This document shows positions 18,291 to 30,643 of a DNA stretch of 32,000 bases, in pieces. Both the position numbers and the translations under genes were made by a program. Location: positions 2,580,001 through 2,612,000 of the forward strand of contig NC_017856.1 of the NCBI RefSeq assembly GCF_000260965.1. The letters are read 5' to 3'. The notes under the pieces are model-generated. The model worked only from the letters and a program-made list of their open reading frames with translations. It did not search any database and had not been told where the DNA came from. Source of the stretch: Methylophaga frappieri (GTDB lineage Bacteria > Pseudomonadota > Gammaproteobacteria > Nitrosococcales > Methylophagaceae). Positions within the stretch are counted from its first letter, which is position 1. Each line of letters begins with the position of its first letter.

Positions 18291-18333
18291 TTATCAGGTT
18301 TCATACTACAAAAGTAACTGGTTCCCAGTTGCA

Positions 18334-18352
18334 GTGTAACTGTTACTAACTT
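18334..18352 (+). promoter_or_regulatory. Cluster motif copy A (GTGTAACTGTTACTAACTT), upstream of the protease gene at 18432
   Basis: Exact 19-mer, identical to 30625-30643. A degenerate tandem copy (aaGTAACTGGTTCCCAGTT) lies at 18312-18330, with the two GTAAC pentamers 22 bp apart. Confidence 0.6.
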
Positions 18353-18431
18353 AATTTCTTACTCCAATCTGAGCATAGTGTAATTACGCAATTTTAATGT
18401 AACTCTATGATTAGAGCTTGGAGGCCTAAAG

Positions 18432-20066
18432 ATGGATAGTCTGTTTAAGATTCTGCTTCTCACCATCCCATTTTATGTTTCGGGATGTGCTCAATTTGTT
18501 GAGACTTCTTACGGAAGTGATGGAAACAACTTCTTTATAAAAAATGCTCAACAACAAGACACAGCCAAAGACGCATACTTCAATGGTGACTTTCATGAGG
18601 CAAAGCTGAGTTGGAAGATACTTAAACAGGAGGTAGATTCTCGTTTACCTGAGATGAAATACCCAGCCGCTCTGTACATGGAAGGGGCTAAGTATGAGGC
18701 AAATTCTGCTTATGCCAGTCTCAAAATGGGAGACCTTGCAGAGGGCTATGAAACTTACAGGAAAGTTTTTGAATATATAAATTCAGAAATTAAGAATCAT
18801 AAAAACTACTCAGAAAACCGGGCTCGGGAAATTAGGGGAAGGAAACTTTTCAGTCAGGCTTTGAGCAAAACTATCACAACAGGTTTACTTTTGGCTGCCG
18901 CTGACTCGACACAAGAGCAATCTGTCTTGAACTTAATTCAAGAAGAAGCCGATCGGATCAGTAGTCTATACAATGAGGATAACTTTTTAGTTGATGACCG
19001 AATTTCTGAGTGGTCACTCCCAGAAGCGCCAGGTGCAATTTCAGACGATGGAATAAGAGTTGTGTTCCTGCCCAGTATTGATGAGCCACTTAACATAGGT
19101 AAATTGACTATCAATACATCCCGAGGTGCCTCACGATGCACTGCGACATTAGTCGGAGAAAAGGTTGCACTGACAGCCGCTCATTGCGTTACAGACGGAG
19201 ATGTTTTAGTTAACCCAGCGTCTTTAACACTTGAGTTTTCTGATTTGTATATCCCAGATGTTGTATCTGTTGAACAAATTGTCACACATCAAAATAAGCC
19301 CTTTGAATACGATAAGCTTCACATAAATCTTGAAGCCCAAGATTGGGCATTACTTGAGCTTACCAGACACCCTGTCGGTAGAGGTTACGCTGGTGTTATG
19401 GATCAAACCCAAGTCAGAGATGACTCTAAGGTGATAGCAACTGGGTTTTCAGCTGACCTTAATGATGGCCGCTACCTATCAATGCATTGGGGCTGTGGAA
19501 TCATAGATAGACAGGCACATTACTCGGAGCTCAAGTGCAAAATATCAGGTGGTGCATCAGGGGGGCCAGTATTCACCCTAGATGAGCAGGATAAGATTAT
19601 CGGAGTCAATTCATATGGCCCTGACACAGAAGTGCGTGAGGGCGTGGCCAACACGTCTGACTTCATAGATTTATTGATTGAGTATAGAAAATCAAATCAT
19701 CAGGGTGATTCGATGATCTTAAATAACAAGGTTCTCAGATCTGTCGACGCGGGCTTTTATGACTGGAACACAGATTGTCAGTTGTCAGGCATTTGGGCTG
19801 AAGCTAATAATTCCATTTCAGTAATGCAAGAGACAATTACGGGTGAGGTAAGTGGCAGAAATGTACGGTACCTAGCTCACTCAGGTTATCTTCAACAGCT
19901 TCAACTTACTGGACAAAAAGTTAGAAGCGGGTTTTACGACACGGTCTATGGGTCTGGAAGCAATGTATATGATGTTCGTGGTAGCTACTATGTCCGTACA
20001 AACACCAATTTGATGATCTCAACTAATGGCTATGGCAAGAAGATAGCCCCAATTCTATGTCAATAA
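18432..20066 (+). CDS. Lipoprotein trypsin-fold (S1, V8/Glu-endopeptidase-like) serine protease with a helical N-terminal region and an extra C-terminal beta domain
   Basis: Lipobox FYVSGC. Catalytic triad motifs are LTAAHCV (His), DWALLEL (Asp) and GGASGGPVF (Ser). A GGAGG SD is present. The ~200-aa helical region before the protease domain contains TPR-like segments. Confidence 0.85.
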   Translation: MDSLFKILLLTIPFYVSGCAQFVETSYGSDGNNFFIKNAQQQDTAKDAYFNGDFHEAKLSWKILKQEVDSRLPEMKYPAALYMEGAKYEANSAYASLKMGDLAEGYETYRKVFEYINSEIKNHKNYSENRAREIRGRKLFSQALSKTITTGLLLAAADSTQEQSVLNLIQEEADRISSLYNEDNFLVDDRISEWSLPEAPGAISDDGIRVVFLPSIDEPLNIGKLTINTSRGASRCTATLVGEKVALTAAHCVTDGDVLVNPASLTLEFSDLYIPDVVSVEQIVTHQNKPFEYDKLHINLEAQDWALLELTRHPVGRGYAGVMDQTQVRDDSKVIATGFSADLNDGRYLSMHWGCGIIDRQAHYSELKCKISGGASGGPVFTLDEQDKIIGVNSYGPDTEVREGVANTSDFIDLLIEYRKSNHQGDSMILNNKVLRSVDAGFYDWNTDCQLSGIWAEANNSISVMQETITGEVSGRNVRYLAHSGYLQQLQLTGQKVRSGFYDTVYGSGSNVYDVRGSYYVRTNTNLMISTNGYGKKIAPILCQ

Positions 20067-20398
20067 CTCATCATCTTGCGTAATTTTATGAATCTGAGAT
20101 TTTACAATTATACGGATTTAGTTGTAGTTCATTGATCACTACTTGCGTCGTCTTATTGTTCGCCAACTCTTAAAACCCATGTTTACTGAAGCGGCCTGTG
20201 GGTGTTGCCATTCCAAGCACCTCCTACATATAAACTGGAGACACTACCTAACTGTTTGAAATGGTCTGTGGAAGAGTGGTAGACCCCCTTTGACTGTTCA
20301 TATGGAACTGTTCTGATGCCCAAATAATAGCCACGAATTGTCTACGATAGTCAAAGCAGTCCCAATATGTAATTCACATAATTGAGTTTTAACCTACA

Positions 20399-20908
20399 TC
20401 AGTGTCTAACTTCGTCATAGTAGAGAATTGCCCATCGGTTCTCTAAGCCACCCATGATCAGTTTAAATGTGGTTTCAAGCTCATAGCCACTATTAAAATG
20501 AATGATCATTAAACGAATATCAGACAACCCCTCAACATCGTTCGGGTATGGTGTGCCAAACTGGTCAAGGTGGTGCGGTTCTCCGGGTTGAGGCTCGATC
20601 ACGGCAAGTTCAACCTTGCATGGTCCTGGTTCTTCGAAATCACAAGACAGAATCTCTTCACATTGATCCGAGACTGTTTTGTCATTGAGGCCGTGTGTAA
20701 GTTGGGATAGTGCATCTTGTGAGTTGAGACTATCAGGATAAAGCATCGAGATGCAGACCATGTCACTGGATTCTATCTTATCAGCAATATCAGCCGTGAC
20801 CGGCGAGTGTGTTAGAAATTCAGCCACGGTTGAGAATAGCGAACTTTCAGTCTGAGCAAACACATTACAAGCACTCAGAAGTAGCATCATTGTCACAAGA
20901 AATTTCAT
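20399..20908 (-). CDS. Secreted hypothetical protein
   Basis: An AAGGAG SD lies 7 nt upstream of the ATG at 20908. Signal peptide MKFLVTMMLLLSACNVFA/QT. Several Cys residues; no family recognised. The ORF is open to 20938. Confidence 0.6.
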   Translation of the reverse strand: MKFLVTMMLLLSACNVFAQTESSLFSTVAEFLTHSPVTADIADKIESSDMVCISMLYPDSLNSQDALSQLTHGLNDKTVSDQCEEILSCDFEEPGPCKVELAVIEPQPGEPHHLDQFGTPYPNDVEGLSDIRLMIIHFNSGYELETTFKLIMGGLENRWAILYYDEVRH

Positions 20909-20934
20909 GAATTGCTCCTTGATCATAGCAAGTG

Positions 20935-21282
20935 TCAATCATCAAAACCGCATTCACAGTGATGCTTATAGCAAGAAACCTGGAAGCAATCGGGGCATAT
21001 CTCCAAGTTGTCGAGCTTGAATCGATCACCGCAAACGCTGCAGCAAAGCTTTCTGTTGATAAAAGCCGTGTAATCCAATCCCACAGCTGCTCTTTTCATC
21101 CAATAGGCGCTTACCATCTTCTTCAACTCTGATTCGTCTATGGTTGAGTGCTGTGTCATGTAAAGCTCTGCGGCCAAAACAATGACAGGGCTGAGCTCCT
21201 CAAGAACTAATTGACCCTCATCGCTGATTTCAGAACACAGCCTAATGATCTTTAATGCAGATGGTGAATGAACCCGGGTCAT
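20935..21282 (-). CDS. Cytoplasmic hypothetical protein with a C-terminal Cys-rich (zinc-ribbon-like) motif
   Basis: No signal peptide. The C-terminus reads CCSVCGDRFKLDNLEICPDCFQVSCYKHHCECG. The ATG at 21282 forms an ATGA overlap with the stop of the upstream gene. The ORF is open to 21309. Confidence 0.55.
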   Translation of the reverse strand: MTRVHSPSALKIIRLCSEISDEGQLVLEELSPVIVLAAELYMTQHSTIDESELKKMVSAYWMKRAAVGLDYTAFINRKLCCSVCGDRFKLDNLEICPDCFQVSCYKHHCECGFDD

Positions 21283-21845
21283 GGACGCTGTGATTTGATT
21301 CGAGTGCATTCACCGTATGATGAGGTGATATGGTTATCAGTAAAAGGTCGTTGGGTCTGCTGATAGTGACCCAGCCCGCCATCAAACCTGATCTCTAGCA
21401 GGTGATCTGATTGGCATTGAATGGTGTCTTCATTGCTGCCGTTGACGTTGATCTTGCAGGCTGCCATTTCTACCGCTTGCCCGATGGTATGTAACTCATA
21501 ACATCGGCTGTAATTCATGATATGGAGGTGACCCATTTTACTGGAGAGGTGGTCAGGCATGTGATCACTACCTCGAAATAATGCGAGACAAGCTAACTGG
21601 TCAGTCTCTGTCATTGAGTTATGATTGAGCTGTCTTAGCGTGATGTCATCACCACCAAGCTGGAAACTGCCTTCAGCGCCCACTACAGCGGTTTGTTTTG
21701 GTGTGCATGCTATAGAGGCGTATCCTAAATCGGGCAGGCTCAAGTCTCTATCAGACATGAAGGCGGCCCAATCCAACTGCTTAGAGAGAGCGGTTACAGG
21801 GCTAATAATACAGAGCAGACATATGCTGAGAGTTAGGTTTTTCAT
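21279..21845 (-). CDS. Secreted hypothetical protein
   Basis: Signal peptide MKNLTLSICLLCIISPVTALS/KQ. Eight Cys residues in the mature part. The ORF extends to a TTG at 21869. Confidence 0.6.
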   Translation of the reverse strand: MKNLTLSICLLCIISPVTALSKQLDWAAFMSDRDLSLPDLGYASIACTPKQTAVVGAEGSFQLGGDDITLRQLNHNSMTETDQLACLALFRGSDHMPDHLSSKMGHLHIMNYSRCYELHTIGQAVEMAACKINVNGSNEDTIQCQSDHLLEIRFDGGLGHYQQTQRPFTDNHITSSYGECTRIKSQRP

Positions 21846-21893
21846 ACAATGCCCAATCCTTTTGAACAATCTATTACTTGTTGATAAGCGGCT

Positions 21894-22427
21894 TCATGAG
21901 ATGTAAGTGTTGATGGCATTGAGTGTCAGCCACCATCCTGGCAGGATTTCAAGCAAAAGAAATGTGAGACCTTCTTTTTGCAGCACGCTGACACCAATGT
22001 CCACGTTAACCTCATAAAACCTGTCGTTGACCAGCCATTTAATTAGATTTCCCAGTGTGCTTAATTTTTCATCATCGAGTGCTTTTTTATGCACCTGGAT
22101 AAAAACTGGAGGAGGACTTTTGGCTGGTGTTTTAGCATCCGTGTATAGCTCATCTGAAAAGATGATCGCTTGATTTCCATGCCTAAAATTCTCTGCATGC
22201 TGCCTGCCGGCATCAACGTATATGATGGCGTTGTCTTTGTCGAAATAGTTATCCCTGGTGAGCTTTGGTAAAGCTTCCAAGAGGTGAACGATGAGCTCAT
22301 GGCTGACAACATTCTTTGCGCTCTCTGCTCTTTCAGATCGAGACACCGTCAGAAAACTGGTGATTAGCATCAAGGCTAATAACGCACAGATTAAAAGAGA
22401 CCTATGGCTCCTAGTAGGTATCTTCAT
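21894..22427 (-). CDS. Secreted or membrane-anchored hypothetical protein
   Basis: N-terminal MKIPTRSHRSLLICALLALMLITSFLTVS is a signal or anchor sequence. The gene starts 16 nt after the SDR stop codon. No family recognised. Confidence 0.6.
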   Translation of the reverse strand: MKIPTRSHRSLLICALLALMLITSFLTVSRSERAESAKNVVSHELIVHLLEALPKLTRDNYFDKDNAIIYVDAGRQHAENFRHGNQAIIFSDELYTDAKTPAKSPPPVFIQVHKKALDDEKLSTLGNLIKWLVNDRFYEVNVDIGVSVLQKEGLTFLLLEILPGWWLTLNAINTYIS

Positions 22428-22443
22428 GGAATTACATATCCTA

Positions 22444-23241
22444 TCAAGAGCTACGACGATACCCAGTTACTGTCATCAGCCACTGCACGACACTTGGAAA
22501 CATAAAATGCTGCCAGCAGACTGTTTTCATCATAAAAGGGATCACAATTCGTCGTTTGTTCTTTTCGATACCTTTTACAATAGCCTTAGCTACCTGCTCA
22601 GGAGTGAGGTTAGGAATCATTTTTGCAATTTTGGGTACACGCTCTCTGCTTCCAGGGTTGTGTTGCCAGTATTCAGATTCGACCACGCCACTCTCAAATA
22701 GAGTTACGCCAATATCTTTGCCATACAAGTCAGCACGTAATGCTTCATTGAAGCCTTTCATGGCCCATCTGGCAGCATGGTAAGCGGTAGCGCCTGGCCA
22801 CACAAAACGAGAGCTCACAGAGCTAATATTCACAATATGACCGCAGTTGCGCCTGCGCATTTCAGGAAGAAAAGCCCGAGTAAGGTTAAAGGCCGCAAAG
22901 TAGGGAACTTCCATCATCTGCCAGGCTTCATCAGCACTGGTCTCCTGAATATCTTTCCATTGTCCTCGTCCAGCATTATTGATCAGGATGTCAGGTGTGC
23001 CTATCTCAGTGTTGATTTGCTTGGCAACATTTTCGACCATCTCGGCATCTGCAAGGTCAAGTGCATAATAGTGTGCATCCCCACCGGAGGCTTTAATTTC
23101 TGACTGAACCTCTTTTAGGCGGGCCTCATTTCTTGCAAGGAGAATGACTCTAGCTCCTTTCCTTGCCAGCTCTTTTGCCGTGGCGGCACCAATACCGCTC
23201 GATGCCCCTGTCACTATTGCTGTTTTGGCGTTCAAATTCAT
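22444..23241 (-). CDS. Short-chain dehydrogenase/reductase (classical SDR) with a hydrophobic C-terminal tail
   Basis: TGASSGIGAATA (TGxxxGxG), NNAG and ISS are present. The active-site region reads AYHAARWAMKGF, where Arg sits at the position of the YxxxK Lys. Confidence 0.9.
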   Translation of the reverse strand: MNLNAKTAIVTGASSGIGAATAKELARKGARVILLARNEARLKEVQSEIKASGGDAHYYALDLADAEMVENVAKQINTEIGTPDILINNAGRGQWKDIQETSADEAWQMMEVPYFAAFNLTRAFLPEMRRRNCGHIVNISSVSSRFVWPGATAYHAARWAMKGFNEALRADLYGKDIGVTLFESGVVESEYWQHNPGSRERVPKIAKMIPNLTPEQVAKAIVKGIEKNKRRIVIPFMMKTVCWQHFMFPSVVQWLMTVTGYRRSS

Positions 23242-23332
23242 CTAGTTTCTCCAGAACTAATGCTCACATGACTTTTCTCAGCACTTAGGTATCTTTTCTG
23301 ATTCCTTGAGATGGCCTTGTAGACATAATTTC

Positions 23333-24607
23333 TCATTCGGATGGACGCAGCTCTGTTAGATGCTCTGGCTCGGTTAGCTTGCGTAATCTGACTAGAGCGT
23401 CATAAAACATTGAGCTAGATGCTCCCAATGCCTTTGAACCGTCATCAAGTGGCGTTCTGGAGTATCCTGCGCCGCTTTGGACTCTGTAGCCAGCAGCATT
23501 TACGCCTATTACTGTCGGATTTTGAGGAATTGATGACATCAAAAGAATCGGTGAGCCAGATGAGCCGCCCCAAGTCACACATGTGTAATCATGTTGCCCC
23601 ATGATTCCCTGTCCCTTGCGGAGTTCACAACCCCAGTCAAGAGACATCAATTGTCCCTGGTTGAGATCCCCAGAGTAACCACCTATGGCGATTTTGGTTC
23701 CACTATCGAGTTGAGATGTTTCCGGCATAACATCAAGGTAGCCTCTACCATATGGGTGTCTATCAAGTACCAAAATGGCCCAGTCATGCTTTGTTTCTTT
23801 CGTATAATCGCCCTTTGAGCGAACTACCTCTTTGATATTGACGCTGTCCGGATGCCTGAGCGAATCAAACAGTAGCACACCCTCTTGCCAGACATCATTG
23901 CCTTGCTCGTTTTCAACACAATGCTTGTTAGTCAGTGCCAATCGATAACCAACGAGAGAAGCTGTGCACCAACCGCTTTGATTTTTAAATTTGGCCACAT
24001 GAAAGAGGGCGTTGGTAGTGGGGACAACAACTAAGCGGACACCATCGTGCTCGGGTCGTTTCTGACCCATTAGCTCTGGAGAGTTGATGTTTTTGAGACC
24101 CTCTATACTGGTGTCGATGAGCTTGTTCCCTAGCTCAAAATACACGCTGTTTAAAATAGAAGAGCCAGATGATGTCGCCGCTTGAAGCTGAAGCAATGCT
24201 CCCATCACCTGCGTGTTGTATTCACCGGTAGATTTATTCAGCCGAACCATTTCAGCCTCATCTTCCTGGAATTGATTAAAGGCATTCAGATACATCTCCC
24301 TCGCTTTTATTGGATACCCTTGAAGCAGCAGGCTCCAGGCGGAGAAGAGGTCAATCTTCATACTATCGACGTAATAACTCCCAGTGTAGTAATTTTCTCC
24401 AGAAGGTAGAGAATTTCTGGCTGACGCAATCAATTGATCGACCGTGTCGTAATCACGCTCTATAAGGGCGGTATCTATGCCATCAAACTTTGCCTCTAAA
24501 GTACTTTTGATTACCTCATGTTGATCGACTTCCAGGACTCTAAGCTCTTTTGTACACGCTGATGCGAGCAAAACAAGCAAAATAGGGATAATTCGAGATT
24601 TCATCAT
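23333..24607 (-). CDS. Lipoprotein trypsin-fold (S1) serine protease, paralogue of 18432..20066
   Basis: Signal/lipobox LLVLLASAC. Triad motifs are LTNKHCV, DWAILVL and GGSSGSPIL. It shares DG(I/V)R(V/L)V..P...CTA(T/S)LVG...ALT..HCV with the other protease. A GGAGA SD lies inside the upstream gene's 3' end, and TAATG overlaps that gene's stop. The ORF is open to 24622. Confidence 0.85.
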   Translation of the reverse strand: MMKSRIIPILLVLLASACTKELRVLEVDQHEVIKSTLEAKFDGIDTALIERDYDTVDQLIASARNSLPSGENYYTGSYYVDSMKIDLFSAWSLLLQGYPIKAREMYLNAFNQFQEDEAEMVRLNKSTGEYNTQVMGALLQLQAATSSGSSILNSVYFELGNKLIDTSIEGLKNINSPELMGQKRPEHDGVRLVVVPTTNALFHVAKFKNQSGWCTASLVGYRLALTNKHCVENEQGNDVWQEGVLLFDSLRHPDSVNIKEVVRSKGDYTKETKHDWAILVLDRHPYGRGYLDVMPETSQLDSGTKIAIGGYSGDLNQGQLMSLDWGCELRKGQGIMGQHDYTCVTWGGSSGSPILLMSSIPQNPTVIGVNAAGYRVQSGAGYSRTPLDDGSKALGASSSMFYDALVRLRKLTEPEHLTELRPSE

Positions 24608-25156: not shown

Positions 25157-25175
25157 CAGTTAGAAACGGTTACAA
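25157..25175 (-). promoter_or_regulatory. Cluster motif copy B (minus strand reads tTGTAACcGTTtCTAACTg), upstream of the operon starting at 25077
   Basis: 15 of 19 positions match the exact 19-mer. A GTTAC pentamer (minus-strand reading of 25183-25187) starts 14 nt upstream of the motif's GTAAC. The site lies in the divergent intergenic region shared with the regulator gene. Confidence 0.5.
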
Positions 25176-25225
25176 ACTTGGTGTAACCTTGTTACAAGGG
25201 TGGTTCAGAGTGGTCAGGGATTGTA

Positions 25226-26797
25226 ATGGTTGTTCTAGAGGAAATAGATAAAGACAGAGTCCGAGAGCATGCAGAAAAAATCTTAGCAAGCCGGTACTTT
25301 TCGAATTCAACACGTCAGCAACGATTTCTTAAATATTTAGTCAGTCAATCCTTAAGTGATGACGCTCCATCTCTCAAGGGCTATACGATTGGGATAGAGG
25401 TTTTCGATAGAGAACCAGACTTTGATCCTGGAGTGGATTCCATTGTCAGGGTTGAGGCCACTCGAATTCGAAACAAGCTCAGGGAATATTACGAAAAGGA
25501 AGGGGCTCAAGATGAGGTTCGAATCCATTTTCGAAAGGGCACATATAAACTTGAATTTACTATTGGCTCACAAACCCCGGAACGGGTCACTCCAGAAGAA
25601 AATACTGAACCAGAAACCATATCAAGTAAACCATCTTTAGTTGTCCTTCCTTTTGTATCAATCGGTCCAGATAATTCCCGCGACTACTTTGCCGATGGCA
25701 TAACTGACAGTTTGATCTCCCTGCTGGCGAGGTTGTCGGGTTTGTTCGTTATATCAAGACAATCTGCTTTTACTTACAAGGATACTCTTAAGACATCCAA
25801 TGAAATTGCTACAGAATTGGGTGTTCAATATTTACTAGAAGGCAGCCTCCAACACGCCGGTGATCGTGTTCGAATAGCTGCTCGTTTGGTCAATGCTGAT
25901 AATAGCTCACACATTTGGTCAGAAAGGTATGATTGTGACCTGACAGATATATTTGCTTTACAAGACGAAATAACAAAGCAGATAGTCGATGCCTTAAAAG
26001 TTCAATTGACAAGGAAAGAAGATAAGCTCTTTGGAGTTAAAGCAACAAATAATATTGATGCTCACGACATGCTGTTGAGAGCTGTTGCTATCTACTATAA
26101 GTATTCAAAAGAGAGTACTGAGCAATCAATAGAGCTACTTCAACAGGTTATAGAGCTGGATGAAAACTATGTTGCTGGACACGCATGGTTAGCCCGGGCG
26201 TTGTCATTTATGTGGTCAATGCACTGGTGCCGAGAGCGTTCAATATTAAATAGGGCTATTGATTCTGCAAGTAAAGCGCTTGAACTAGATCCCCAATCGC
26301 CATATGCAAACTCGGTTATGGGCTGGGTATTGATGTGGCGTTTGGATGAGGCTTCATCGATTTCGTACTGTAAAAAAGCCGTATCGTTAGATCCAAACAA
26401 TGCAGAAGCTCTGTTGTTTCTGTCTATGACTCTATCTTCTGCTGGCCTGGGCGAAGATGCTCTGGAGAGCGCAAAAAAAGCGATGCGCTTCACACCAACC
26501 TCCGCACCGTTTTATCAGTACGCCTTGGGTAATGCTTATTACGTGCTCAAGGAATATAAAAAATCATTAGACGCCTATGAGCATGGCATTAAATTAAACA
26601 CCAATTTTTTACCAAATCATTATGGGCAATTATGTGCCTTTGAACGATTGGGTAGGCAGGAAGAGATTACTAAAAAGTTGGTAGCTTATGAACAACTCAG
26701 AAACCTTATTGAGTTGGCTGACAATCCAATTTGGACCAGTGATGAAATTCTCACAGAAGTAAAGCAAATACGAAAAAAACTGTTTGCTGAAAAATGA
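25226..26797 (+). CDS. Soluble transcriptional regulator: OmpR/CadC-type winged-helix region, TolB-N-like domain and C-terminal TPR repeats
   Basis: The N-terminal part reads RQQRFLKYLV....LKGYTIGIEVF......DSIVRVEATRIRNKLREYY....VRIHFRKGTYKLEF, a trans_reg_C-like wing pattern. It is followed by PSLVVLPFVSIG...DYFADGITDSLISLLARLSGLFVISRQS. Several TPR-like units follow (e.g. ALGNAYYVLKEYKKSLDAYEHGIKLNTNF). No TM segment was seen. Confidence 0.7.
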   Translation: MVVLEEIDKDRVREHAEKILASRYFSNSTRQQRFLKYLVSQSLSDDAPSLKGYTIGIEVFDREPDFDPGVDSIVRVEATRIRNKLREYYEKEGAQDEVRIHFRKGTYKLEFTIGSQTPERVTPEENTEPETISSKPSLVVLPFVSIGPDNSRDYFADGITDSLISLLARLSGLFVISRQSAFTYKDTLKTSNEIATELGVQYLLEGSLQHAGDRVRIAARLVNADNSSHIWSERYDCDLTDIFALQDEITKQIVDALKVQLTRKEDKLFGVKATNNIDAHDMLLRAVAIYYKYSKESTEQSIELLQQVIELDENYVAGHAWLARALSFMWSMHWCRERSILNRAIDSASKALELDPQSPYANSVMGWVLMWRLDEASSISYCKKAVSLDPNNAEALLFLSMTLSSAGLGEDALESAKKAMRFTPTSAPFYQYALGNAYYVLKEYKKSLDAYEHGIKLNTNFLPNHYGQLCAFERLGRQEEITKKLVAYEQLRNLIELADNPIWTSDEILTEVKQIRKKLFAEK

Positions 26798-26827: not shown

Positions 26828-27094
26828 ATGGTGAAAAGAATTAATGTGATGAAGTTAGCCTTGTTTATTCTTGCACTTGTAATAGTTGCTGGCGGTTTTG
26901 CAATCTTCATTGAAGTGCAAACTTCAGCAAAAACTGTCTATGCTGATGATGATTCTTCCCATCCACTATCTGATATTACTGATGAGGAGTTTTATGAAAT
27001 CCAAGCAGAAATTGCAAGATTAGAAGCTGAAGCTGCGAAGTTGATCGAAGAGGGTCAGTCGACAAATGAGGAAAAACAGGGGGTAGAAGAATAG
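26828..27094 (+). CDS. Small membrane-anchored/secreted acidic coiled-coil protein
   Basis: An N-terminal hydrophobic helix (KLALFILALVIVAGGFAIFI) is followed by a D/E-rich helix (EEFYEIQAEIARLEAEAAKLIEEG). An alternative start lies at 26849. Confidence 0.5.
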   Translation: MVKRINVMKLALFILALVIVAGGFAIFIEVQTSAKTVYADDDSSHPLSDITDEEFYEIQAEIARLEAEAAKLIEEGQSTNEEKQGVEE

Positions 27095-27298: not shown

Positions 27299-27427
27299 AC
27301 TATATTCCTTCTATCTACTGAAAAAATAGTAGGTTTCAGGTTTTCTTTAAAGCATTAGTCACGCTTAAATTTCCATTTTCCAAAAATAGTATTCCCTTCT
27401 TTAAAACTCTCACAAGGTTACATTTAG

Positions 27428-27446
27428 ATGTAACGGTTTCTAACTT
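27428..27446 (+). promoter_or_regulatory. Cluster motif copy C (aTGTAACgGTTtCTAACTT), upstream of the lipoprotein operon starting at 27609
   Basis: 16 of 19 positions match the exact 19-mer. A GTTAC pentamer at 27417-27421 starts 13 nt upstream of the GTAAC. Confidence 0.5.
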
Positions 27447-27608
27447 CACGTCATACGTCTCTTTCAACATGATTTAGTCATCCACCTTGACTCGCGATTA
27501 GTGAGCGAGAATTTGAGGGCTGCGAGGAGAAATGATGTGACTACACATGAGCAACAAGAGCATTCAGACTCAAATACCGTAAGGTCCTCAGTGGTTGACG
27601 GTTTGACG

Positions 27609-28115
27609 ATGCTAAACCTAGCAAAGACCCTGGCCTTGTTAATGAATGTATTCATGCTTTTGGGATGCGACAGCGCCGAGACTGTTGAAATCAGGCCACT
27701 AGAGAGCAACTTGGGATGGCTAGTTGGAACTGGCAACGATAAAGGCGTTTTCGACAACCGCGTGTATTCGGATGATTGCTCGTCATTTGAGACTGGCTTC
27801 TGTTATCAGAAGCTCAAAGAAATTATCTACACGGCGGAGAATATTGATCTCGACCAGTTGTGGTTTGAGCAGTTGAAGAAAAAACGCTATTACAACGAGA
27901 TCAAACGGGTCACGATCCACGCGGATACGGTTAATATCAGACACAACATCGCGCTCCCTTCTCGTGATATTGAGATTTTTGCCGAGAACATTCATATCTT
28001 TGATGGAGCGCAGCTCAATACAACGCCTCTCCATGCCACAACACATACGCTCGTTAGCGCTTACGAGCCGATTGTGACTTACTCCTTGGCATACCGAAAA
28101 GCTGTTATGAAGTGA
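27609..28115 (+). CDS. Lipoprotein, segment 1 of a possibly single frameshifted gene (repeat-bearing, perhaps beta-helix-like)
   Basis: Lipobox FMLLGC when started at MLNLAKTLALL. The 36 codons upstream in the ORF track (from a GTG at 27501) look non-coding. Contains repeats of the type VTIHADTVNI / IEIFAENIHIF. Confidence 0.55.
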   Translation: MLNLAKTLALLMNVFMLLGCDSAETVEIRPLESNLGWLVGTGNDKGVFDNRVYSDDCSSFETGFCYQKLKEIIYTAENIDLDQLWFEQLKKKRYYNEIKRVTIHADTVNIRHNIALPSRDIEIFAENIHIFDGAQLNTTPLHATTHTLVSAYEPIVTYSLAYRKAVMK

Positions 28116-28921
28116 GGCATAGCCCGTCTGAGTGTGAATACACCATCGGAGAACGGGGTGAGAATGGTGGAAACATCACGCTTTCAGCCAACACATTAAA
28201 AGTTATCTCATGGCAAAATGATGATGCCAAGGCGCTGGAGGCCAATGGTGGTAGGGCCTATTCCGGTTATTCAGGGGTGTTCCCCATCAACAGTAGCATC
28301 AGAGGTCTTTCAAAAAAAACACTCAACAGCTTTCATCATGATCTTCTTGATGAACGAAGTGCATTCGATGCGTTGAATACGTTTTGTGAGATTGACTATG
28401 GAGAGGCAGCCCCAACTTATGCGCCGTATTCAAGGATGGCTAAACTCCGAGACGTTATCCAGATTACGCCCCACAATTTCAAGAAAACTGAACCACATTA
28501 CCAGAAAGTGGTGAGCAACGACGCCGAGCTGGTTCAGGCGCGTTACAACATCGGCGCCATCAACCTCCAGGAGGGGAATAGCATTACGCCTTTGCTTTAC
28601 GCCGAGGAACTGCAAAAAACAATTAACGATGCCGGCGTACCATCCTATCGTCTAACCCCAGGGTCAATCCGAGCCCCTATCTTTCCATCCAGTAACACAG
28701 ATATCGCCGATAAAGGTGATGGCGGGACTATCCATTTAAAAATCGACACATTCTATGTTGAAGGCGTTCAAGTCAGTGCTGCGGAGTGGATTAAAGGTCA
28801 CACATCAACGCTCCCTGGTGGCCAAACATCACCTCAGATTCTGGCAGTGTTTGATGCCCTATCAGAGCAGAAACTCCAGCAGAAAAGGTGCTTGCAATGG
28901 ATGCGTATCGTGAAGCACTAA
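28112..28921 (+). CDS. Segment 2 (frame -1 relative to segment 1), hypothetical
   Basis: A GTG start overlaps the previous stop (GTGA). Contains GENGGNITLSANTLKVI and GDGGTIHLKIDTFYVEG, the same alternating pattern as segment 1. Confidence 0.5.
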   Translation: MRHSPSECEYTIGERGENGGNITLSANTLKVISWQNDDAKALEANGGRAYSGYSGVFPINSSIRGLSKKTLNSFHHDLLDERSAFDALNTFCEIDYGEAAPTYAPYSRMAKLRDVIQITPHNFKKTEPHYQKVVSNDAELVQARYNIGAINLQEGNSITPLLYAEELQKTINDAGVPSYRLTPGSIRAPIFPSSNTDIADKGDGGTIHLKIDTFYVEGVQVSAAEWIKGHTSTLPGGQTSPQILAVFDALSEQKLQQKRCLQWMRIVKH

Positions 28922-29169
28922 AAACATTCAACCCGGACGTGCCGGTCTTGTACAGCGTCACGCTCAAAAAGCATCTAGATGGCAGGATCTCATGCCGCAC
29001 CCAAGTTATCGAGGAAACCCTCATTAAAGACGAAGTGCGTTTTGATGTCAGATACGCCAATACCGGTGCACCCAATTTTCTGGATCGAACAAGCTATGCA
29101 GGCAAGCACGGACATGTGGAGCACGAATTTAACTCCATAATGGGATGGGTCCGAGCTGCTTTGAGGTAG
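28897..29169 (+). CDS. Segment 3 (frame -1 relative to segment 2), hypothetical
   Basis: The ATG at 28897 is preceded by AAGG, and the GTG at 28888 in the ORF track is also possible. It overlaps the end of segment 2 by 25-34 nt. Confidence 0.45.
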   Translation: MDAYREALKTFNPDVPVLYSVTLKKHLDGRISCRTQVIEETLIKDEVRFDVRYANTGAPNFLDRTSYAGKHGHVEHEFNSIMGWVRAALR

Positions 29170-29243
29170 TTGTGCTGGGAGCGGTTTTAAGAATCAATTC
29201 AGCGGCCCCTTGGCAGATGCTAACAACAATGTGAGATAGTCAA

Positions 29244-30539
29244 ATGAGAATATACTGGCTTATATTGCAAAACACTGTGACGGTTTTAGGGCTGCTTATA
29301 GCCACAGGGTGTGCCTCGATCACTGAAACGGTAAGCTCAACGATTGATTATGTCACCCCCGATCCAGGTCTGGTAGAAGTCGATTATGTCGCCCATTTTG
29401 GCGAAAAGGACGGTATAGAGCTTGAAGTTTTTGACCATCGTTTTTTTGTCCCAGAGAGAGCGTTATCGCTGCCGGCGCTGTTTACGCTTACCACTGACGA
29501 TGATTATGAAGAAGCCTCACTCCGGCTCCTGAGGGATAAGGCGTTTAACCAGTCATATAAAGATATAGAAAAACTGGCCTCGGCTGCGAAGTTCACACCT
29601 TACCTTGAAGCCAAGCTATTTGCTGCCTGGGCAAACAAGTTGTCAATCAGCAAATCGGTATCCAACCTTGTCTTGTTCACTGCGATGAAGAAAAAAGGTT
29701 ACAGAACACTTTTGGTCTCATCACTTTCTCAACAAGAGGTGATGATTGCGACACATAGAAGACTCCTCTTATCAACCTATTTCCTTACAGATGACAACAC
29801 TGGAGAGCCGTATGGTCACGCGTATCCGATCTTGGCCAAATACCCGGCCAAATTTGACACCAGCAACAGCCGGGTCGTGATTAAAACCCAGAACATGAAG
29901 CCCTTAGACATCTTTGCCGGTCTGGACACCTTCACTAATCACAAGCGTTATGAAAAAGTCAGGACCAGGCAGGTATCTTTTTTCTACAAAGGTAAGCGCT
30001 TGCGTATAGATCTGGACTACTCTGTGCCTGTCTCCCAATACCATTACCGCCTTCCCCCTATAGACTACGAACAAAGTGGTGACTACATCACCAAATACAC
30101 GGTGTTTGATGCCTTTACTGGAAAATCAATGAGGGCAGCGGTGGCAGAATATGTCGATGACCCAAATAACAAATTAGAAGTCGCGCGCTTTTTGCTAGCA
30201 ATGACGCAGTATGGCTTTGAATACAAAACGGATGATGAATACTACGGACATAGTCACCCCGTGTTTGCGAAAGCCATGCTGTTGCCCAGGACAGAGGCCT
30301 CTGATTGTGAAGACAAAACCTTTTTCTTTAACGCATCAGCAAGGCTGTTCGGTATTGAGACTGCTATTGCTCTGGTGCCTGGGCATATGTTTTCACTCAT
30401 AGCGCTACCTCCACCCAGTAATGAAAGTCATTTTTTTCAAGGTCGATGGCTCGCGGCGGAGGCCACTGGGAGAGGCCATTCTCTTGGAGAGGTGTATTCC
30501 TATCTCGAGGGAATAACTCCAGAGATATTTTTAGAGTAA
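29244..30539 (+). CDS. Lipoprotein with a C-terminal transglutaminase-like (papain-fold) core
   Basis: Lipobox LLIATGC. The C-terminal part reads SDCEDKTFFFNASARLFGIETAIALVPGHMFSLI...GRWLAAEATG. This fits the transglutaminase-core pattern C....(F)...(L)(R)..GI.(A)..V.GH........W...D with Glu in the Asp position. Confidence 0.6.
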   Translation: MRIYWLILQNTVTVLGLLIATGCASITETVSSTIDYVTPDPGLVEVDYVAHFGEKDGIELEVFDHRFFVPERALSLPALFTLTTDDDYEEASLRLLRDKAFNQSYKDIEKLASAAKFTPYLEAKLFAAWANKLSISKSVSNLVLFTAMKKKGYRTLLVSSLSQQEVMIATHRRLLLSTYFLTDDNTGEPYGHAYPILAKYPAKFDTSNSRVVIKTQNMKPLDIFAGLDTFTNHKRYEKVRTRQVSFFYKGKRLRIDLDYSVPVSQYHYRLPPIDYEQSGDYITKYTVFDAFTGKSMRAAVAEYVDDPNNKLEVARFLLAMTQYGFEYKTDDEYYGHSHPVFAKAMLLPRTEASDCEDKTFFFNASARLFGIETAIALVPGHMFSLIALPPPSNESHFFQGRWLAAEATGRGHSLGEVYSYLEGITPEIFLE

Positions 30540-30624
30540 CAATTTGAAATATTTCCATCAGATCAGTCATGCTCTAAAGCTTATAAGCCCTGAGGCCTTG
30601 CAATCTAACAGGTGTTACTTCCTG

Positions 30625-30643
30625 GTGTAACTGTTACTAACTT
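30625..30643 (+). promoter_or_regulatory. Cluster motif copy D (GTGTAACTGTTACTAACTT), upstream of the gene at 30699
   Basis: Exact 19-mer, identical to copy A. A GTTAC pentamer at 30614-30618 starts 13 nt upstream of the GTAAC. The ORF-track 'start' at 30612 reads through this motif and is unlikely to be real. Confidence 0.6.

What the first reader, a model, noticed from the sequence alone, without database searches (positions are those of the whole stretch)
18312..30643. Cluster-specific 19-bp motif in front of all four transcription units of the accessory cluster
**Sites.** The exact 19-mer GTGTAACTGTTACTAACTT occurs at 18334-18352 and 30625-30643, both on the + strand. Close variants occur at 27428-27446 (+, aTGTAACgGTTtCTAACTT) and 25157-25175 (minus strand, tTGTAACcGTTtCTAACTg).

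**Position.** Each copy is co-oriented with the first gene of a transcription unit and lies about 45-160 nt upstream of it:
- the protease gene at 18432;
- the 7-gene minus-strand operon starting at 25077;
- the lipoprotein operon starting at 27609;
- the gene at 30699.

**Structure.** Each copy is preceded by a GTTAC-type pentamer starting 13-15 nt before the GTAAC (27417, 30614, minus-strand 25183-25187, and a degenerate GTTCC at 18321). This gives GTTAC-N8/9-GTAAC-N-GTT(A/T)C-TAACTT, meaning overlapping inverted half-sites. Copy A also has a degenerate tandem copy with the two GTAAC pentamers 22 bp apart.

**Specificity.** By eye, I found no copy upstream of any gene in 1-17.5 kb.

**Two readings.**
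- It is the operator of a dedicated regulator. The wHTH-TPR protein at 25226 is encoded next to copy B.
- It is a specialised promoter, with a -35-like GTTAC(A) and a -10-like TAACTT separated by 18-20 nt, read by a sigma factor encoded elsewhere.
Basis: seen in the sequence. Interest (0 to 1): 0.8.

Follow-up and report, generated by a model that had tools for sequence, protein, structure and literature searches.

The report
Operator of a HilA-like regulator family
The repeated 19-bp motif is real and is most likely the DNA site where the neighbouring TPR regulator, one of a large unstudied family, switches on four nearby operons for secreted proteins; related regulator genes in three proteobacterial classes carry the same site next to them.

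Summary
**Observation: confirmed.** TGTAACNGTTWCTAACT occurs exactly four times in 32 kb (0.04 expected). Every copy is intergenic, co-oriented with the next gene, and 43-162 nt upstream of it.

**What it is.** The window is Methylophaga frappieri. The genes behind the motif encode lipoproteins and secreted proteins, including two trypsin-like proteases.

**Link to the regulator.**
- The accessory genes are almost unique to this genome. The regulator at 25226-26797 is not.
- In 79 loci encoding its homologues (27-58% identity; Beta-, Gamma- and Alphaproteobacteria), the core TAAC-N-GT-N3-TAAC occurs 37 times where about 2.5 are expected. 35 of these are intergenic.
- A PWM scan gives 48 hits, 43 of them within 3 kb of the regulator gene.
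- The extended consensus is a tandem 10-bp repeat, GTWWS-TAAC-N twice. That fits head-to-tail binding by winged-helix domains.

**The regulator.** Its middle and TPR parts are remotely similar to HilA and CadC. Its N-terminal domain has no Pfam or PDB sequence match, but has a helix-helix-helix-wing topology and aligns weakly with CadC-type wHTH (P=8e-4). In membrane-anchored relatives it is the only cytoplasmic part.

**Verdict.** This is an operator of a cluster-situated one-component regulator, probably an activator site replacing the -35 element. The alternative-sigma reading is poorly supported. No protein-DNA binding has been shown. Novelty is moderate.

The parts
18332..18352 (+). Site A: CAGTGTAACT|GTTACTAACT|T, two 10-bp units. 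It lies 79 nt upstream of the lipoprotein protease gene g1.
   Evidence: Exact 19-mer. PWM score 25.4 bits. Sequence.
18314..18325 (+). Upstream auxiliary element of site A (GTAACTGGTTCC). Its GTAAC lies 22 bp upstream of the main GTAAC.
   Evidence: Alignment A1. Sequence.
18432..20066 (+). g1: 544-aa lipoprotein (lipobox VSGC) with a trypsin-like domain. First target unit.
   Evidence: Pfam Trypsin / Trypsin_2. Sequence. Only 2 homologues in 5.8 billion proteins.
20399..25113 (-). Minus-strand operon g8-g2. In order: a 168-aa secreted protein, a 429-aa trypsin-like lipoprotein, an SDR (22444-23241), then four small secreted, Cys-rich or membrane proteins.
   Evidence: ORFs. Pfam. Sequences with signal peptides. 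The SDR is 62-74% identical to SDRs found in three regulator-homologue loci, adjacent to the regulator in two of them.
25157..25177 (-). Site B: GTTTGTAACC|GTTTCTAACT|G, the best match to the family consensus. It sits in the 112-bp divergent region between g8 and the regulator gene, about 50 bp from the regulator start codon.
   Evidence: PWM score 27.5 bits. Aligns without gaps to the equivalent region of the 66-67%-identical orthologues L080 and L084.
25182..25196 (-). Upstream auxiliary palindrome of site B (TGTAACAAGGTTACA on the minus strand). It is conserved as TTAACAAGGYTACA in L080 and L084.
25226..26797 (+). Candidate regulator, 523 aa, soluble.
- 'Domain X' (residues about 1-113): putative divergent winged helix.
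- TolB_N/FlgO-like middle domain (about 135-260).
- TPR repeats (about 290-490).
   Evidence: - P0001 is 100% identical; M. frappieri, named 'adenylate cyclase' by NCBI.
- Pfam finds TPR and a faint FlgO/TolB_N match.
- NCBIfam: HilA/EilA E=1e-12 and CadC E=4e-10, both far below cutoff.
- AF2 model of residues 1-118 has pLDDT 84.6.
- hhalign against CadC-type wHTH gives P=8e-4.
26828..27094 (+). g10: 88-aa single-pass membrane protein starting 30 nt after the regulator gene. Probably co-transcribed with it.
   Evidence: ORF list. Sequence.
27426..27446 (+). Site C: AGATGTAACG|GTTTCTAACT|T, upstream of the lipoprotein operon g11-g13.
   Evidence: PWM score 24.4 bits.
27409..27422 (+). Upstream auxiliary element of site C (CTCACAAGGTTACA).
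27501..30539 (+). Operon g11-g12-g13. The lipoprotein start of g11 is probably 27609. The products are 204, 269 and 431 aa. None has a Pfam family.
30623..30643 (+). Site D: TGGTGTAACT|GTTACTAACT|T, 55 nt upstream of g14.
   Evidence: PWM score 23.3 bits.
30605..30618 (+). Upstream auxiliary element of site D (CTAACAGGTGTTAC).
30699..31382 (+). g14: 227-aa secreted protein with no known family. A further secreted-protein gene starts at 31539 with no motif of its own.

Best explanation
The motif is the operator of the regulator encoded inside the cluster (25226-26797). That protein belongs to a large, uncharacterised family of HilA/CadC-like one-component regulators.

**The site.** Each site consists of two tandem 10-bp units, GTWWS-TAAC-N, so the two TAAC tetramers lie one helical turn apart. 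A weaker GTAAC/GTTAC element lies about 21-22 bp further upstream.

**Inferred mechanism.**
- Two N-terminal domains of the regulator bind head-to-tail on one face of the DNA, as PhoB, OmpR and HilA do.
- The upstream element takes a second, cooperatively bound pair.
- The complex overlaps the -35 region of promoters that have no -35 hexamer of their own.
- It recruits RNA polymerase, switching on four units that encode lipoproteins and secreted proteins, including two trypsin-like proteases.
- Site B lies only about 50 bp from the regulator's own start codon, so it should also make the regulator autoregulated.
- The TolB_N-like and TPR part would be the signal-sensing or oligomerising module. 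The signal is unknown.

**Evolutionary reading.** The ancestral module is regulator - site - small secreted protein, with an SDR in some lineages. In M. frappieri, further copies of the site have brought newly acquired genes under the same control.

**Shown versus inferred.**
- Shown: the motif, its positions, and its phylogenetic linkage to the regulator family.
- Inferred: binding by this protein, binding through domain X, and activation rather than repression.
For: 1. **Non-random, promoter-proximal, co-oriented sites.** Four perfect matches; 5 matches at up to 2 mismatches against 0.04 expected. All four are intergenic and co-oriented with the downstream gene.
2. **Linkage to the regulator, not to the cargo.**
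   - Of the cluster genes, only the regulator and, in three loci, the SDR recur in the 79 homologue loci.
   - TAACNGTNNNTAAC occurs 37 times in those 1.29 Mb, against about 2.5 expected. 35 of the 37 are intergenic.
   - A PWM scan gives 48 hits of at least 15 bits. 43 are within 3 kb of the regulator gene and 22 within 200 bp. Shuffled loci gave 3 hits of at least 14 bits and 1 of at least 16 bits in 1.17 M positions.
   - A 5-mer enrichment test with no motif assumed, on the 200 bp upstream of 72 homologues, is topped by TAACT, GTAAC/GTTAC and CTAAC (z about 13).
   - TAAC-N6-TAAC is present in 19 of 72 of those upstream regions, against 28 of 3600 control windows.
   - L022 (regulator 44% identical) carries the exact window 17-mer at the same place and in the same orientation as site B.
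   - The closest orthologues (66-67% identical; L080, L084) align without gaps with site B and its flanks.
3. **Tandem-repeat anatomy.** Examples are Methylotenera GTTACTAACT|GTATCTAACT and window site B GTTTGTAACC|GTTTCTAACT.
4. **Regulator architecture.**
   - NCBIfam HilA/EilA (E=9.7e-13, residues 128-429) and CadC (E=4.4e-10).
   - In relatives L054, L056, L071, L075 and L076, domain X is the only cytoplasmic part and is followed by a hydrophobic, TM-like stretch (read by eye) and a periplasmic TolB_N-TPR part. That is the ToxR/CadC topology.
   - Domain X has a predicted helix-helix-helix-wing topology at pLDDT 84.6.
   - The best Foldseek hit is the ArlR DNA-binding domain.
   - hhalign gives a collinear alignment with CadC-type wHTH at P=8e-4. 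It pairs RLRxKL with the recognition helix and PKGxY with the wing.
   - Several Arg/Lys in the putative recognition helix are invariant or nearly so (R75 and R82 invariant, R80 in at least 90% of 23 diverse sequences; K84 invariant among closer relatives).
5. **No sigma-70-type promoter** is predicted in any of the four motif-bearing intergenic regions, as expected for activator-dependent promoters.
6. **Conserved -10-like element.**
   - In site B and its orthologues, CATAAT / AACTAT lies 13 nt after the second TAAC.
   - In Methylophilaceae it lies 10-11 nt after the second TAAC.
   - That places the site over the -35 region.
Against: - **No experiment.** Nothing shows that this protein binds DNA at all.
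- **Domain X is not recognised by sequence.** Pfam and PDB sequence searches find nothing. The structural match is weak (E=0.57, TM 0.36-0.40). The hhalign probability is only 24%. A trimmed construct folded poorly (pLDDT 48).
- **Domain X occurs in other contexts.**
  - It is found fused to class III cyclase domains.
  - In Bryobacterales it follows a canonical wHTH.
  - It could therefore be an accessory domain rather than the DNA-binding one.
- **Many homologue loci lack a site.** About half show no strong site within 3 kb: 41 of 79 overall, and 10 of the 33 whose regulator is at least 43% identical.
- **Promoter geometry is inferred from -10-like hexamers only.** It is not consistent for sites A, C and D. 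The spacing differs by 3-5 nt between Methylophaga-type and Methylophilaceae-type promoters.
- **Paralogues share the core motif.**
  - Novimethylophilus and Pseudohongiella each carry two regulator loci with the same core.
  - A paralogue elsewhere in the genome could therefore be the true binder.
- **The ideal unit GTTA-S-TAAC is itself palindromic.** The sequence alone cannot prove head-to-tail binding.
Confidence: 0.62

Rival explanations
1. The same protein binds the same site, but acts as a repressor. The sites overlap the core promoters of the four units and of the regulator gene, and block RNA polymerase until a signal releases the protein.
For: - The site lies close to candidate -10 hexamers. 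In some lineages a TAnnnT lies only 2-4 nt after TAACT.
- Site B sits about 50 bp from the regulator's start codon, inside what must be its own promoter region.
- A second, phased element 21-22 bp upstream is also typical of cooperative repressors.
Against: - No sigma-70-like promoter, meaning no -35 plus -10 pair, is detectable at any of the four sites. A repressed but otherwise competent promoter would normally show one.
- The orientation is fixed in all four window copies, with the better unit nearest the gene. It also points towards the target gene in most other loci. A pure roadblock would not need this.
- From general knowledge, the closest architectural relatives act mainly as activators: HilA, CadC, ToxR, PhoB and SARPs.
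Confidence: 0.22
2. The motif is bound by a different transcription factor encoded elsewhere, for example a LytTR-type or other family member. The TPR protein is then only a co-regulated or signalling partner that does not touch DNA.
For: - The DNA-binding nature of domain X is unproven.
- Domain X also occurs in cyclase fusions and behind a canonical wHTH.
- From general knowledge, the 21-22-bp phasing of GTAAC elements and the ACAGTTAG-like cores recall LytTR direct repeats.
Against: - Across Beta-, Gamma- and Alphaproteobacteria, the only gene found next to the motif in every clade examined is the domain-X/TPR gene. No other DNA-binding gene was found conserved in the neighbourhood.
- In membrane-anchored relatives, domain X is the sole cytoplasmic domain. 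That is hard to explain unless it is the output, DNA-binding module.
- Pfam finds no LytTR or other DNA-binding domain in the cluster.
Confidence: 0.12
3. The motif is a specialised promoter read by an alternative (for example ECF-type) sigma factor encoded elsewhere. GTTAC(A) would be the -35 element and TAACTT the -10 element.
For: - There is no sigma-70-type promoter in these regions.
- Orientation is fixed and the sites are close to gene starts.
- In the four window copies, a GTTAC lies 18-20 nt before TAACTT.
Against: - Across taxa, the conserved part is a compact 20-bp tandem repeat with TAAC 10 bp apart. It is not two blocks about 23 bp apart.
- The upstream GTAAC/GTTAC is 14-25 bp away in Methylophilaceae, so it is not at a fixed spacing.
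- Conservation stops right after TAACT(T). A separate -10-like element is conserved 10-13 nt further downstream.
- No sigma or anti-sigma gene was seen among the Pfam-annotated genes of the loci inspected. None of the window cluster ORFs has a sigma-factor domain.
Confidence: 0.06
4. The motif is a non-regulatory dispersed repeat, such as a REP/MITE remnant or a recombination scar left when the island was assembled.
For: - The cluster looks recently assembled. The protease has almost no homologues.
- An IS200/RAYT-like ORF with a REP-like hairpin lies at its left edge.
- Two copies are identical over 19 bp.
Against: - Only the 19-21 bp are shared and the flanks are unrelated.
- All copies are intergenic, co-oriented and promoter-proximal.
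- The same core is conserved next to regulator homologues in distant taxa.
- There is no hairpin potential and no Rfam match.
Confidence: 0.02

Closest known systems
HilA (Salmonella SPI-1 master regulator) and its relatives EilA and YgeH
   Same: - Soluble one-component regulator with an N-terminal DNA-binding module, a TolB_N-like middle domain and C-terminal TPRs.
- Best NCBIfam hit of the window protein (NF009037, E=9.7e-13, residues 128-429).
- Encoded inside a horizontally acquired island, where it directly controls several operons for exported proteins. HilA is an OmpR/ToxR-family protein binding the invF and prgH promoters (PMC7232297).
- From my own knowledge (Lostroh & Lee 2001, listed but not readable here): the HilA box is a direct repeat of hexamers with 11-bp periodicity just upstream of -35.
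   Different: - The score is 47 bits against a family cutoff of 589, so the protein is not a member.
- The N-terminal domain does not match Trans_reg_C.
- The site sequence is different.
- There is no type III secretion system.
- The family is found in methylotrophs and soil or water bacteria, and has thousands of members.
CadC / ToxR-type membrane-integrated one-component regulators
   Same: - The order of parts is the same: cytoplasmic N-terminal DNA-binding domain, a single TM helix, then a periplasmic sensor.
- The CadC model hits residues 152-328 (E=4.4e-10).
- Several motif-associated relatives (L054, L056, L071, L075, L076) have a hydrophobic, TM-like stretch (read by eye) directly after domain X.
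- From general knowledge, these regulators bind repeated elements near -35 and activate transcription.
   Different: - The window protein shows no hydrophobic (TM-like) stretch on visual reading of the sequence and is predicted cytoplasmic.
- Its DNA-binding domain is far more divergent than that of CadC or ToxR.
- The Bryobacterales relatives carry a canonical CadC-type wHTH in addition to domain X.
PhoB/OmpR-type tandem direct-repeat operators (pho box)
   Same: - Two direct repeats one helical turn apart, bound head-to-tail by winged-helix domains.
- The site replaces the -35 hexamer and ends about 10 nt upstream of -10 (general knowledge).
- Here, the second TAAC lies 10-13 nt upstream of a conserved -10-like element, and no -35 hexamer is present.
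   Different: - There is no receiver domain and no partner kinase.
- The recognition sequence (GTWWS-TAAC) is unrelated to the pho box.
- The geometry is inferred, not mapped.
SARP / AfsR cluster-situated activators of Streptomyces
   Same: - A regulator encoded in the cluster controls several transcription units of an accessory gene cluster.
- AfsR combines a winged-helix-containing SARP domain with a TPR domain (PMC10936776).
- From general knowledge, SARPs bind direct repeats with 11-bp periodicity that overlap -35.
   Different: - No BTAD or NOD domain was found by Pfam.
- SARPs are actinobacterial. This protein is proteobacterial.
- The targets here are secreted proteins, not antibiotic biosynthesis genes.

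Membership tests
OmpR/PhoB/ToxR-type winged-helix DNA-binding domain (Pfam Trans_reg_C) | Sequence match to the Trans_reg_C profile or to solved OmpR-family DNA-binding domains. | tested here: not met
   Pfam scan of residues 1-134 at E up to 10 finds no family. PDB profile searches with 9-sequence and 23-sequence alignments find no wHTH hit.
OmpR/PhoB/ToxR-type winged-helix DNA-binding domain (Pfam Trans_reg_C) | Fold consisting of three helices followed by a beta-hairpin wing. | tested here: inconclusive
   - AF2 model at pLDDT 84.6 with H29-43, H52-59, H68-91 and a hairpin at 98-101/110-113.
- Best Foldseek PDB hit is the ArlR DNA-binding domain, but at E=0.57 and TM 0.36-0.40.
- hhalign against CadC/OmpR-type domains taken from the fetched loci gives a collinear 70-column alignment at P=8e-4, probability 24%.
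- A trimmed construct gave pLDDT 48 and was unusable.
OmpR/PhoB/ToxR-type operators | Tandem direct repeats with 10-11-bp periodicity, close to or overlapping -35. | tested here: met
   The repeat part is met: GTWWS-TAAC-N occurs twice, with TAAC 10 bp apart, in the window and in more than 30 other loci. The position relative to -35 is inferred only, from -10-like hexamers. No TSS data exist.
HilA/EilA family (NCBIfam NF009037) | Whole-protein score at or above the curated cutoff of 589 bits. | tested here: not met
   47.3 bits, E=9.7e-13, covering residues 128-429 only. This indicates remote homology of the middle and TPR parts, not membership.
HilA/EilA family (NCBIfam NF009037) | Soluble protein with an N-terminal DNA-binding domain, a middle domain and TPRs, controlling a type III secretion island. 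| tested here: not met
   The architecture is comparable. No T3SS genes are present. The targets are lipoproteins and secreted proteins of unknown families.
CadC/ToxR-like membrane-integrated regulators | A single transmembrane helix between the cytoplasmic DNA-binding domain and the periplasmic sensor. | tested here: not met
   - By visual reading, there is no hydrophobic segment in residues 113-135 or elsewhere in the window protein.
- TM-like hydrophobic stretches (read by eye) are present in relatives L054, L056, L061, L071, L075 and L076.
- No TM-prediction program was run.
Alternative-sigma (ECF-type) promoter | Bipartite -35/-10 with fixed 16-18-nt spacer, conserved as two separate blocks. 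A cognate sigma/anti-sigma pair is often encoded nearby. | tested here: not met
   - Conservation is a contiguous 20-bp tandem repeat.
- The upstream GTWAC lies at a variable distance of 14-25 bp.
- No sigma-factor domain was found in window ORFs, nor among the precomputed annotations of L080-L086.
SARP (BTAD-containing) activators | Trans_reg_C plus BTAD domains. | tested here: not met
   Pfam reports only TPR families and a faint FlgO/TolB_N match.
LytTR-family operators | 9-bp direct repeats separated by 12-13 bp, with a LytTR-domain regulator encoded nearby. | tested here: not met
   A 21-22-bp phasing of GTAAC elements exists. However, no LytTR domain is found in any cluster ORF, and none was among the conserved neighbours.
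Class III adenylate cyclase (the name given to this protein in NCBI) | Guanylate_cyc catalytic domain. | tested here: not met
   No Guanylate_cyc hit in the window protein. The name probably comes from relatives that fuse domain X, TolB_N and TPR to a cyclase domain (P0135, P0161, P0168, P0199).

The most novel reading that the evidence does not exclude
Domain X is a previously unrecognised, highly divergent winged-helix DNA-binding domain.
- It has no Pfam match.
- It is present in about 16,000-20,000 protein clusters at 50% identity.
- It would define one of the larger uncharacterised families of bacterial one-component regulators, with soluble HilA-like, membrane-anchored CadC-like and cyclase-fused forms.
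- Family members would read a shared GTWWS-TAAC tandem repeat.
- They would typically control an adjacent gene for a secreted or periplasmic protein:
  - an unknown 'family X' protein;
  - cytochrome P460;
  - a secreted globin;
  - a SnoaL-like lipoprotein;
  - a PEP-CTERM protein.
- The M. frappieri cluster would then show such a regulator capturing newly acquired genes by spreading its operator.
Probability: 0.5. Interest if true: 0.62.

Novelty: new variant of a known kind. Interest (0 to 1): 0.5.

Why it matters
If correct, this gives the first cis-element, and therefore the first testable function, to a very large family of TPR-containing proteins.

- The family is currently annotated as 'adenylate cyclase', 'TolB-like protein' or hypothetical. 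A domain-X profile finds 20,233 clusters at 50% identity.
- A 20-bp consensus makes regulon prediction possible in methylotrophs (Methylophaga, Methylotenera, Hyphomicrobium) and many soil bacteria. It points to periplasmic and secreted proteins as the usual targets.
- It also offers a clean natural example of regulon growth. A conserved regulator-operator pair has extended its control to rare, recently acquired genes, simply through new operator copies in front of them.
- It does not reveal a new principle of gene regulation. The mechanism proposed is the familiar tandem-repeat, -35-replacing activator.

Tried and rejected
1. **Exact-protein contig lookup for the regulator.** Nothing on record, so no further flanks or genome-wide scan of M. 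frappieri were possible.
2. **Metagenome scan with the window-derived 17-mer**.
   - None of the 80 fetched loci encodes a regulator or cluster homologue, and most hits look like chance matches in coding DNA.
   - At this database size a pattern of about 16 specified bases is expected by chance, so the result neither supports nor refutes anything.
3. **Orthologues of the cargo.** Protease g1 has 2 homologues. Their loci (L085, L086) have no motif and no regulator, so sites A, C and D could not be footprinted phylogenetically.
4. **Sequence recognition of domain X.** Pfam at E up to 10 and two PDB profile searches found nothing.
5. **Trimmed domain X (residues 26-114) for a cleaner fold search.** The model had pLDDT 48 and was not searched. 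The first helix appears to be part of the fold.
6. **Homology between g8 and the conserved 'family X' secreted protein.** None by blastp or hhalign. The slot is conserved, but the protein is not.
7. **Consistent -10 placement for sites A, C and D.** None found by eye or by the promoter scan.
8. **Known RNA families.** None in the window.
9. **Defence-system models.** Only generic trypsin-domain hits.
10. **Literature.**
    - No paper in the held library contains any of four motif variants.
    - A search for TolB-like/TPR/winged-helix regulators gave nothing relevant.
    - The HilA-box paper is not held.
11. **Rejected alternatives.** NtcA (GTA-N8-TAC), sigma-54, FliA and IHF consensus sequences do not fit the spacing or sequence when read by eye.

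Full report

Yes.
- The 19-mer GTGTAACTGTTACTAACTT occurs at 18334-18352 and 30625-30643, with a 3-mismatch copy at 27428-27446.
- The degenerate TGTAACNGTTWCTAACT has exactly four perfect matches: 18335(+), 25158-25174(-), 27429(+) and 30626(+). At up to 2 mismatches there are 5 matches against 0.04 expected in shuffles.
- An independent repeat search returns the motif as the top direct-repeat family.
- The flanks of the two identical copies are unrelated, so the identity reflects constraint on about 20 bp and not a segmental duplication.
- All four copies are intergenic and point towards the next gene, 43-162 nt upstream of its start codon.
It also shows another nTAAC 21-22 bp upstream of the main GTAAC in every copy.
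- A looser core (TAACNGTNNNTAAC, up to 1 mismatch) adds only three hits, all inside genes in the left half of the window.

**2. Context**

- The 523-aa ORF at 25226-26797 is 100% identical to a Methylophaga frappieri protein named 'adenylate cyclase'.
- Nearly every product around the motifs has a signal peptide or lipobox, or is a membrane protein. They include:
  - two paralogous lipoproteins with trypsin-like domains (g1 at 18432-20066, g7 at 23333-24622);
  - an SDR;
  - about ten proteins with no Pfam family.
- Rfam finds nothing in the window. PADLOC finds only generic protease-domain similarity.

**3. The decisive evidence is comparative**

I fetched 79 loci encoding homologues of the 523-aa protein (27-58% identity). 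They come from Methylotenera and other Methylophilaceae, Methylophaga-like MAGs, Hyphomicrobium, Bryobacterales and others.

*The cargo is not conserved.*
- tblastn with all cluster proteins shows that none of the cargo is conserved beside these homologues, except the SDR in three loci.
- Protease g1 has only two homologues among 5.8 billion proteins. Their loci have neither the motif nor the regulator.

*The motif is conserved next to the regulator.*
- With up to 3 mismatches, the window motif turns up again and again 30-90 bp upstream of the regulator homologue, on the opposite strand. This is the geometry of site B.
- L022 (regulator 44% identical) has the exact 17-mer there.
- The core TAAC-N-GT-N3-TAAC occurs 37 times in 1.29 Mb, against about 2.5 expected from its 10 fixed bases. 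35 of the 37 are intergenic.
- A PWM gives 48 hits of at least 15 bits. 43 lie within 3 kb of the regulator gene and 22 within 200 bp. Shuffled loci gave 3 hits of at least 14 bits and 1 of at least 16 bits in 1.17 M positions.

*A control for circularity.* The PWM was trained on these same sites, so I also ran a test with no motif assumed.
- The most enriched 5-mers in the 200 bp upstream of 72 homologues are TAACT, GTAAC/GTTAC and CTAAC (z about 13).
- TAAC-N6-TAAC is present in 19 of 72 upstream regions, against 28 of 3600 control windows.

*The closest orthologues.*
- They are 66-67% identical (L080-L084).
- They show a compact conserved module: the regulator, divergent from a small secreted protein of about 170 aa plus an SDR, with the motif between them.
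- Their intergenic region aligns without gaps with window site B. The alignment includes the upstream TTAACAAGGYTACA palindrome and a CATAAT / AACTAT element 13 nt after the second TAAC.

*Targets in other lineages.*
- The same small secreted protein family follows the motif in Methylophilaceae (blastp E from 1e-21 to 1e-45).
- The window's g8 occupies the same slot but is unrelated.
- In more distant lineages the gene behind the motif encodes other exported proteins: cytochrome P460, a secreted globin, a SnoaL-like lipoprotein or a PEP-CTERM protein.

*Conclusion.*
- The motif travels with the regulator, not with the cargo.
- The M. frappieri cluster is a lineage-specific enlargement of the local regulon.

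**4. Anatomy of the site**

- Anchored sites from all loci give the consensus G-T-W-W-S-T-A-A-C-N twice.
- Examples are GTTACTAACT|GTATCTAACT in Methylotenera and GTTTGTAACC|GTTTCTAACT at window site B.
- The middle pentamer varies (GTTAC, GTAAC, GTAAG, GTATC, GTTTC, GTCGC). It keeps the direct-repeat register rather than mirror symmetry with the first GTAAC.
- The ideal unit GTTA-S-TAAC is itself a 9-bp palindrome. That explains why some sites score on both strands and why sequence alone cannot prove head-to-tail binding.
- Half-sites 5 bp apart cannot both be read by winged-helix domains on one face, whereas TAAC tetramers 10 bp apart can (inference).
- In all four window copies, the better unit is the one nearest the gene.

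**5. The regulator**

- Pfam sees only TPRs and a faint FlgO/TolB_N-like middle domain.
- NCBIfam's best hits are HilA/EilA (E=9.7e-13, residues 128-429 against model positions 114-408) and CadC (E=4.4e-10). Both are far below the family cutoffs.
- The protein is therefore a remote relative sharing the domain order of HilA and CadC, not a member of either family.
- In HilA and CadC, the segment before that region is an OmpR/ToxR-type winged helix. [quoted passage not shown]

The window protein's first 113 or so residues ('domain X') are not recognised by Pfam or by PDB sequence profiles. Evidence that domain X is nevertheless a winged helix:
- AlphaFold gives a confident model (pLDDT 84.6) with three helices and a beta-hairpin after an extra N-terminal helix.
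- The best Foldseek hit is the DNA-binding domain of the OmpR-family regulator ArlR, but only weakly (E=0.57).
- hhalign between a 23-sequence domain-X alignment and CadC/OmpR-type domains from the fetched loci gives a collinear 70-column alignment at P=8e-4.
  - That alignment pairs the near-invariant RLRxKLREYY helix with the recognition helix, and PKGxY with the wing.
  - The canonical domains were located with probe sequences I recalled from memory. The aligned sequences themselves are real.
- Several motif-associated relatives have domain X, then a hydrophobic TM-like stretch (read by eye), then TolB_N-TPR (L054, L056, L071, L075, L076). Domain X is then the only cytoplasmic part of a ToxR/CadC-like bitopic protein, which is where the DNA-binding domain sits in that class.

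Evidence against:
- Bryobacterales relatives carry a canonical CadC-type wHTH in front of domain X.
- Other relatives fuse domain X to a class III cyclase domain. This probably explains the misleading 'adenylate cyclase' name.
- Domain X could therefore be an accessory module.

Family size: a profile search finds domain X in 20,233 clusters at 50% identity, 15,931 of them at E of 1e-10 or better. It is mostly at the extreme N-terminus.

**6. Mechanism**

- The consensus scan finds no sigma-70-type promoter (no -35 plus -10 pair) in any of the four motif regions.
- At site B and its orthologues, a -10-like hexamer is conserved 13 nt after the second TAAC. In Methylophilaceae a CATAAC/TATAAC-like element lies 10-11 nt after it.
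- That places the 20-bp site roughly over -44 to -22. This is where PhoB-type and SARP-type activators replace the -35 element (general knowledge). AfsR's combination of a SARP domain with a TPR domain is described in PMC10936776.
- I therefore favour activation by a head-to-tail pair of domain X modules, helped by a second element two turns upstream, with autoregulation through site B.
- This is inference. The -10 assignments for sites A, C and D are not convincing, the spacing differs between lineages, and a repressor role cannot be excluded.

**7. Rivals**

- **Alternative-sigma reading.** Weak. The conserved unit is a contiguous tandem repeat, the upstream GTWAC is at a variable distance in other lineages, and I saw no sigma-factor gene among the neighbours examined.
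- **A different, unlinked factor.** Possible, because domain X is unproven. However, the domain-X gene is the only gene found beside the motif in every clade examined.
- **A non-functional dispersed repeat.** Effectively excluded by the position, orientation and cross-class conservation of the sites.

**8. Novelty**

- No paper in the held library contains any of four motif variants.
- I found no study of this protein family.
- The kind of system is familiar: a cluster-situated winged-helix activator with a tandem-repeat operator.
- What appears undescribed is the family, its unrecognised DNA-binding domain and its operator.
- I rate it a new variant of a known kind, of moderate interest.

**9. 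Limits**

- Nothing here is experimental.
- I could not scan the rest of the M. frappieri genome.
- The one metagenome scan was swamped by chance matches.
- About half of the homologue loci show no strong site within 3 kb.
- Paralogues share the core motif, so the cognate binder of sites A-D is assigned by adjacency only.

Noticed in passing
window 16980-17312 (-) and 17383-17482: An ORF with an IS200-like Y1 transposase hit (Pfam Y1_Tnp, E=4.6e-5) lies beside a 29-nt inverted repeat, 17383-17411 / 17454-17482, which is 90% complementary. This looks like a RAYT/REP-type pair sitting at the left edge of the accessory cluster.
   Followed up: no
window 18366-18391 and 20076-20101: A 26-nt imperfect inverted repeat (73% complementary) brackets protease gene g1 exactly. 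It may be a trace of how the gene was inserted, or it may be chance.
   Followed up: no
window 18375-18410: Between site A and the g1 start codon there are further GTAAT/GTAAC elements, at 18380 and 18399. They are roughly in 21-22-bp phase with the GTAACs at 18314 and 18336. These could be extra weak binding sites downstream of the main operator. They remain unexplained.
   Followed up: partly
- a small acidic secreted peptide (MKFLLTLSLALVSLGLMANEP...) on the minus strand, divergent from site C;
- a secreted-protein gene starting at 31539 that runs off the window, with no motif in the 156-nt gap after g14.
   Followed up: partly
window 25226-26797: The public name 'adenylate cyclase' is misleading, because the protein has no cyclase domain. 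Relatives that do fuse domain X, TolB_N and TPR to a Guanylate_cyc domain (P0135, P0161, P0168, P0199) probably seeded the name.
   Followed up: yes
L061 9632-11842 and L065 9638-11842 (Bryobacterales MAGs): These homologues carry a canonical CadC-type winged helix, then domain X, then a TM-like hydrophobic stretch (read by eye), then TolB_N-TPR. Either they have two DNA-binding modules in tandem, or domain X has another role there. No TAAC-type site was found upstream of them.
   Followed up: partly
L013, L014 and L017 (Methylophaga-like MAGs), about 6.5 kb downstream of the regulator start: The site (GTTACTAACTGTTAGAAACT) precedes a family-X small secreted protein. Downstream genes whose N-terminal sequences, read by eye and not checked with Pfam, resemble:
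- a Tat-exported molybdopterin oxidoreductase;
- XdhC;
- a MobA-like protein.

Elsewhere (L021, L024, L027) an aldehyde-dehydrogenase-like gene is adjacent. Together with the conserved SDR, this hints that the ancestral module is connected with periplasmic aldehyde or alcohol oxidation.
   Followed up: partly
window 3938-3951 and 4241-4254: Two perfect matches to the loose core TAACNGTNNNTAAC lie inside the 2247-aa ORF (133-6876). They are probably chance, or a by-product of repetitive coding sequence.
   Followed up: no
window 20935-21309 (-): g3 (124 aa) has no signal peptide and ends in a Cys-rich zinc-ribbon-like stretch (CCSVCGDRFKLDNLEICPDCFQVSCYKHHCECG). It is the odd one out in an operon of exported proteins.
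   Followed up: no
L105 2064-2080 (high-GC metagenome contig): A perfect extended match (GTTTGTAACAGTTACTAACT) lies upstream of a gene whose N-terminal sequence, read by eye, resembles xylose isomerase, in a 69% GC contig. It is probably an unrelated operator that happens to share the sequence.
   Followed up: no
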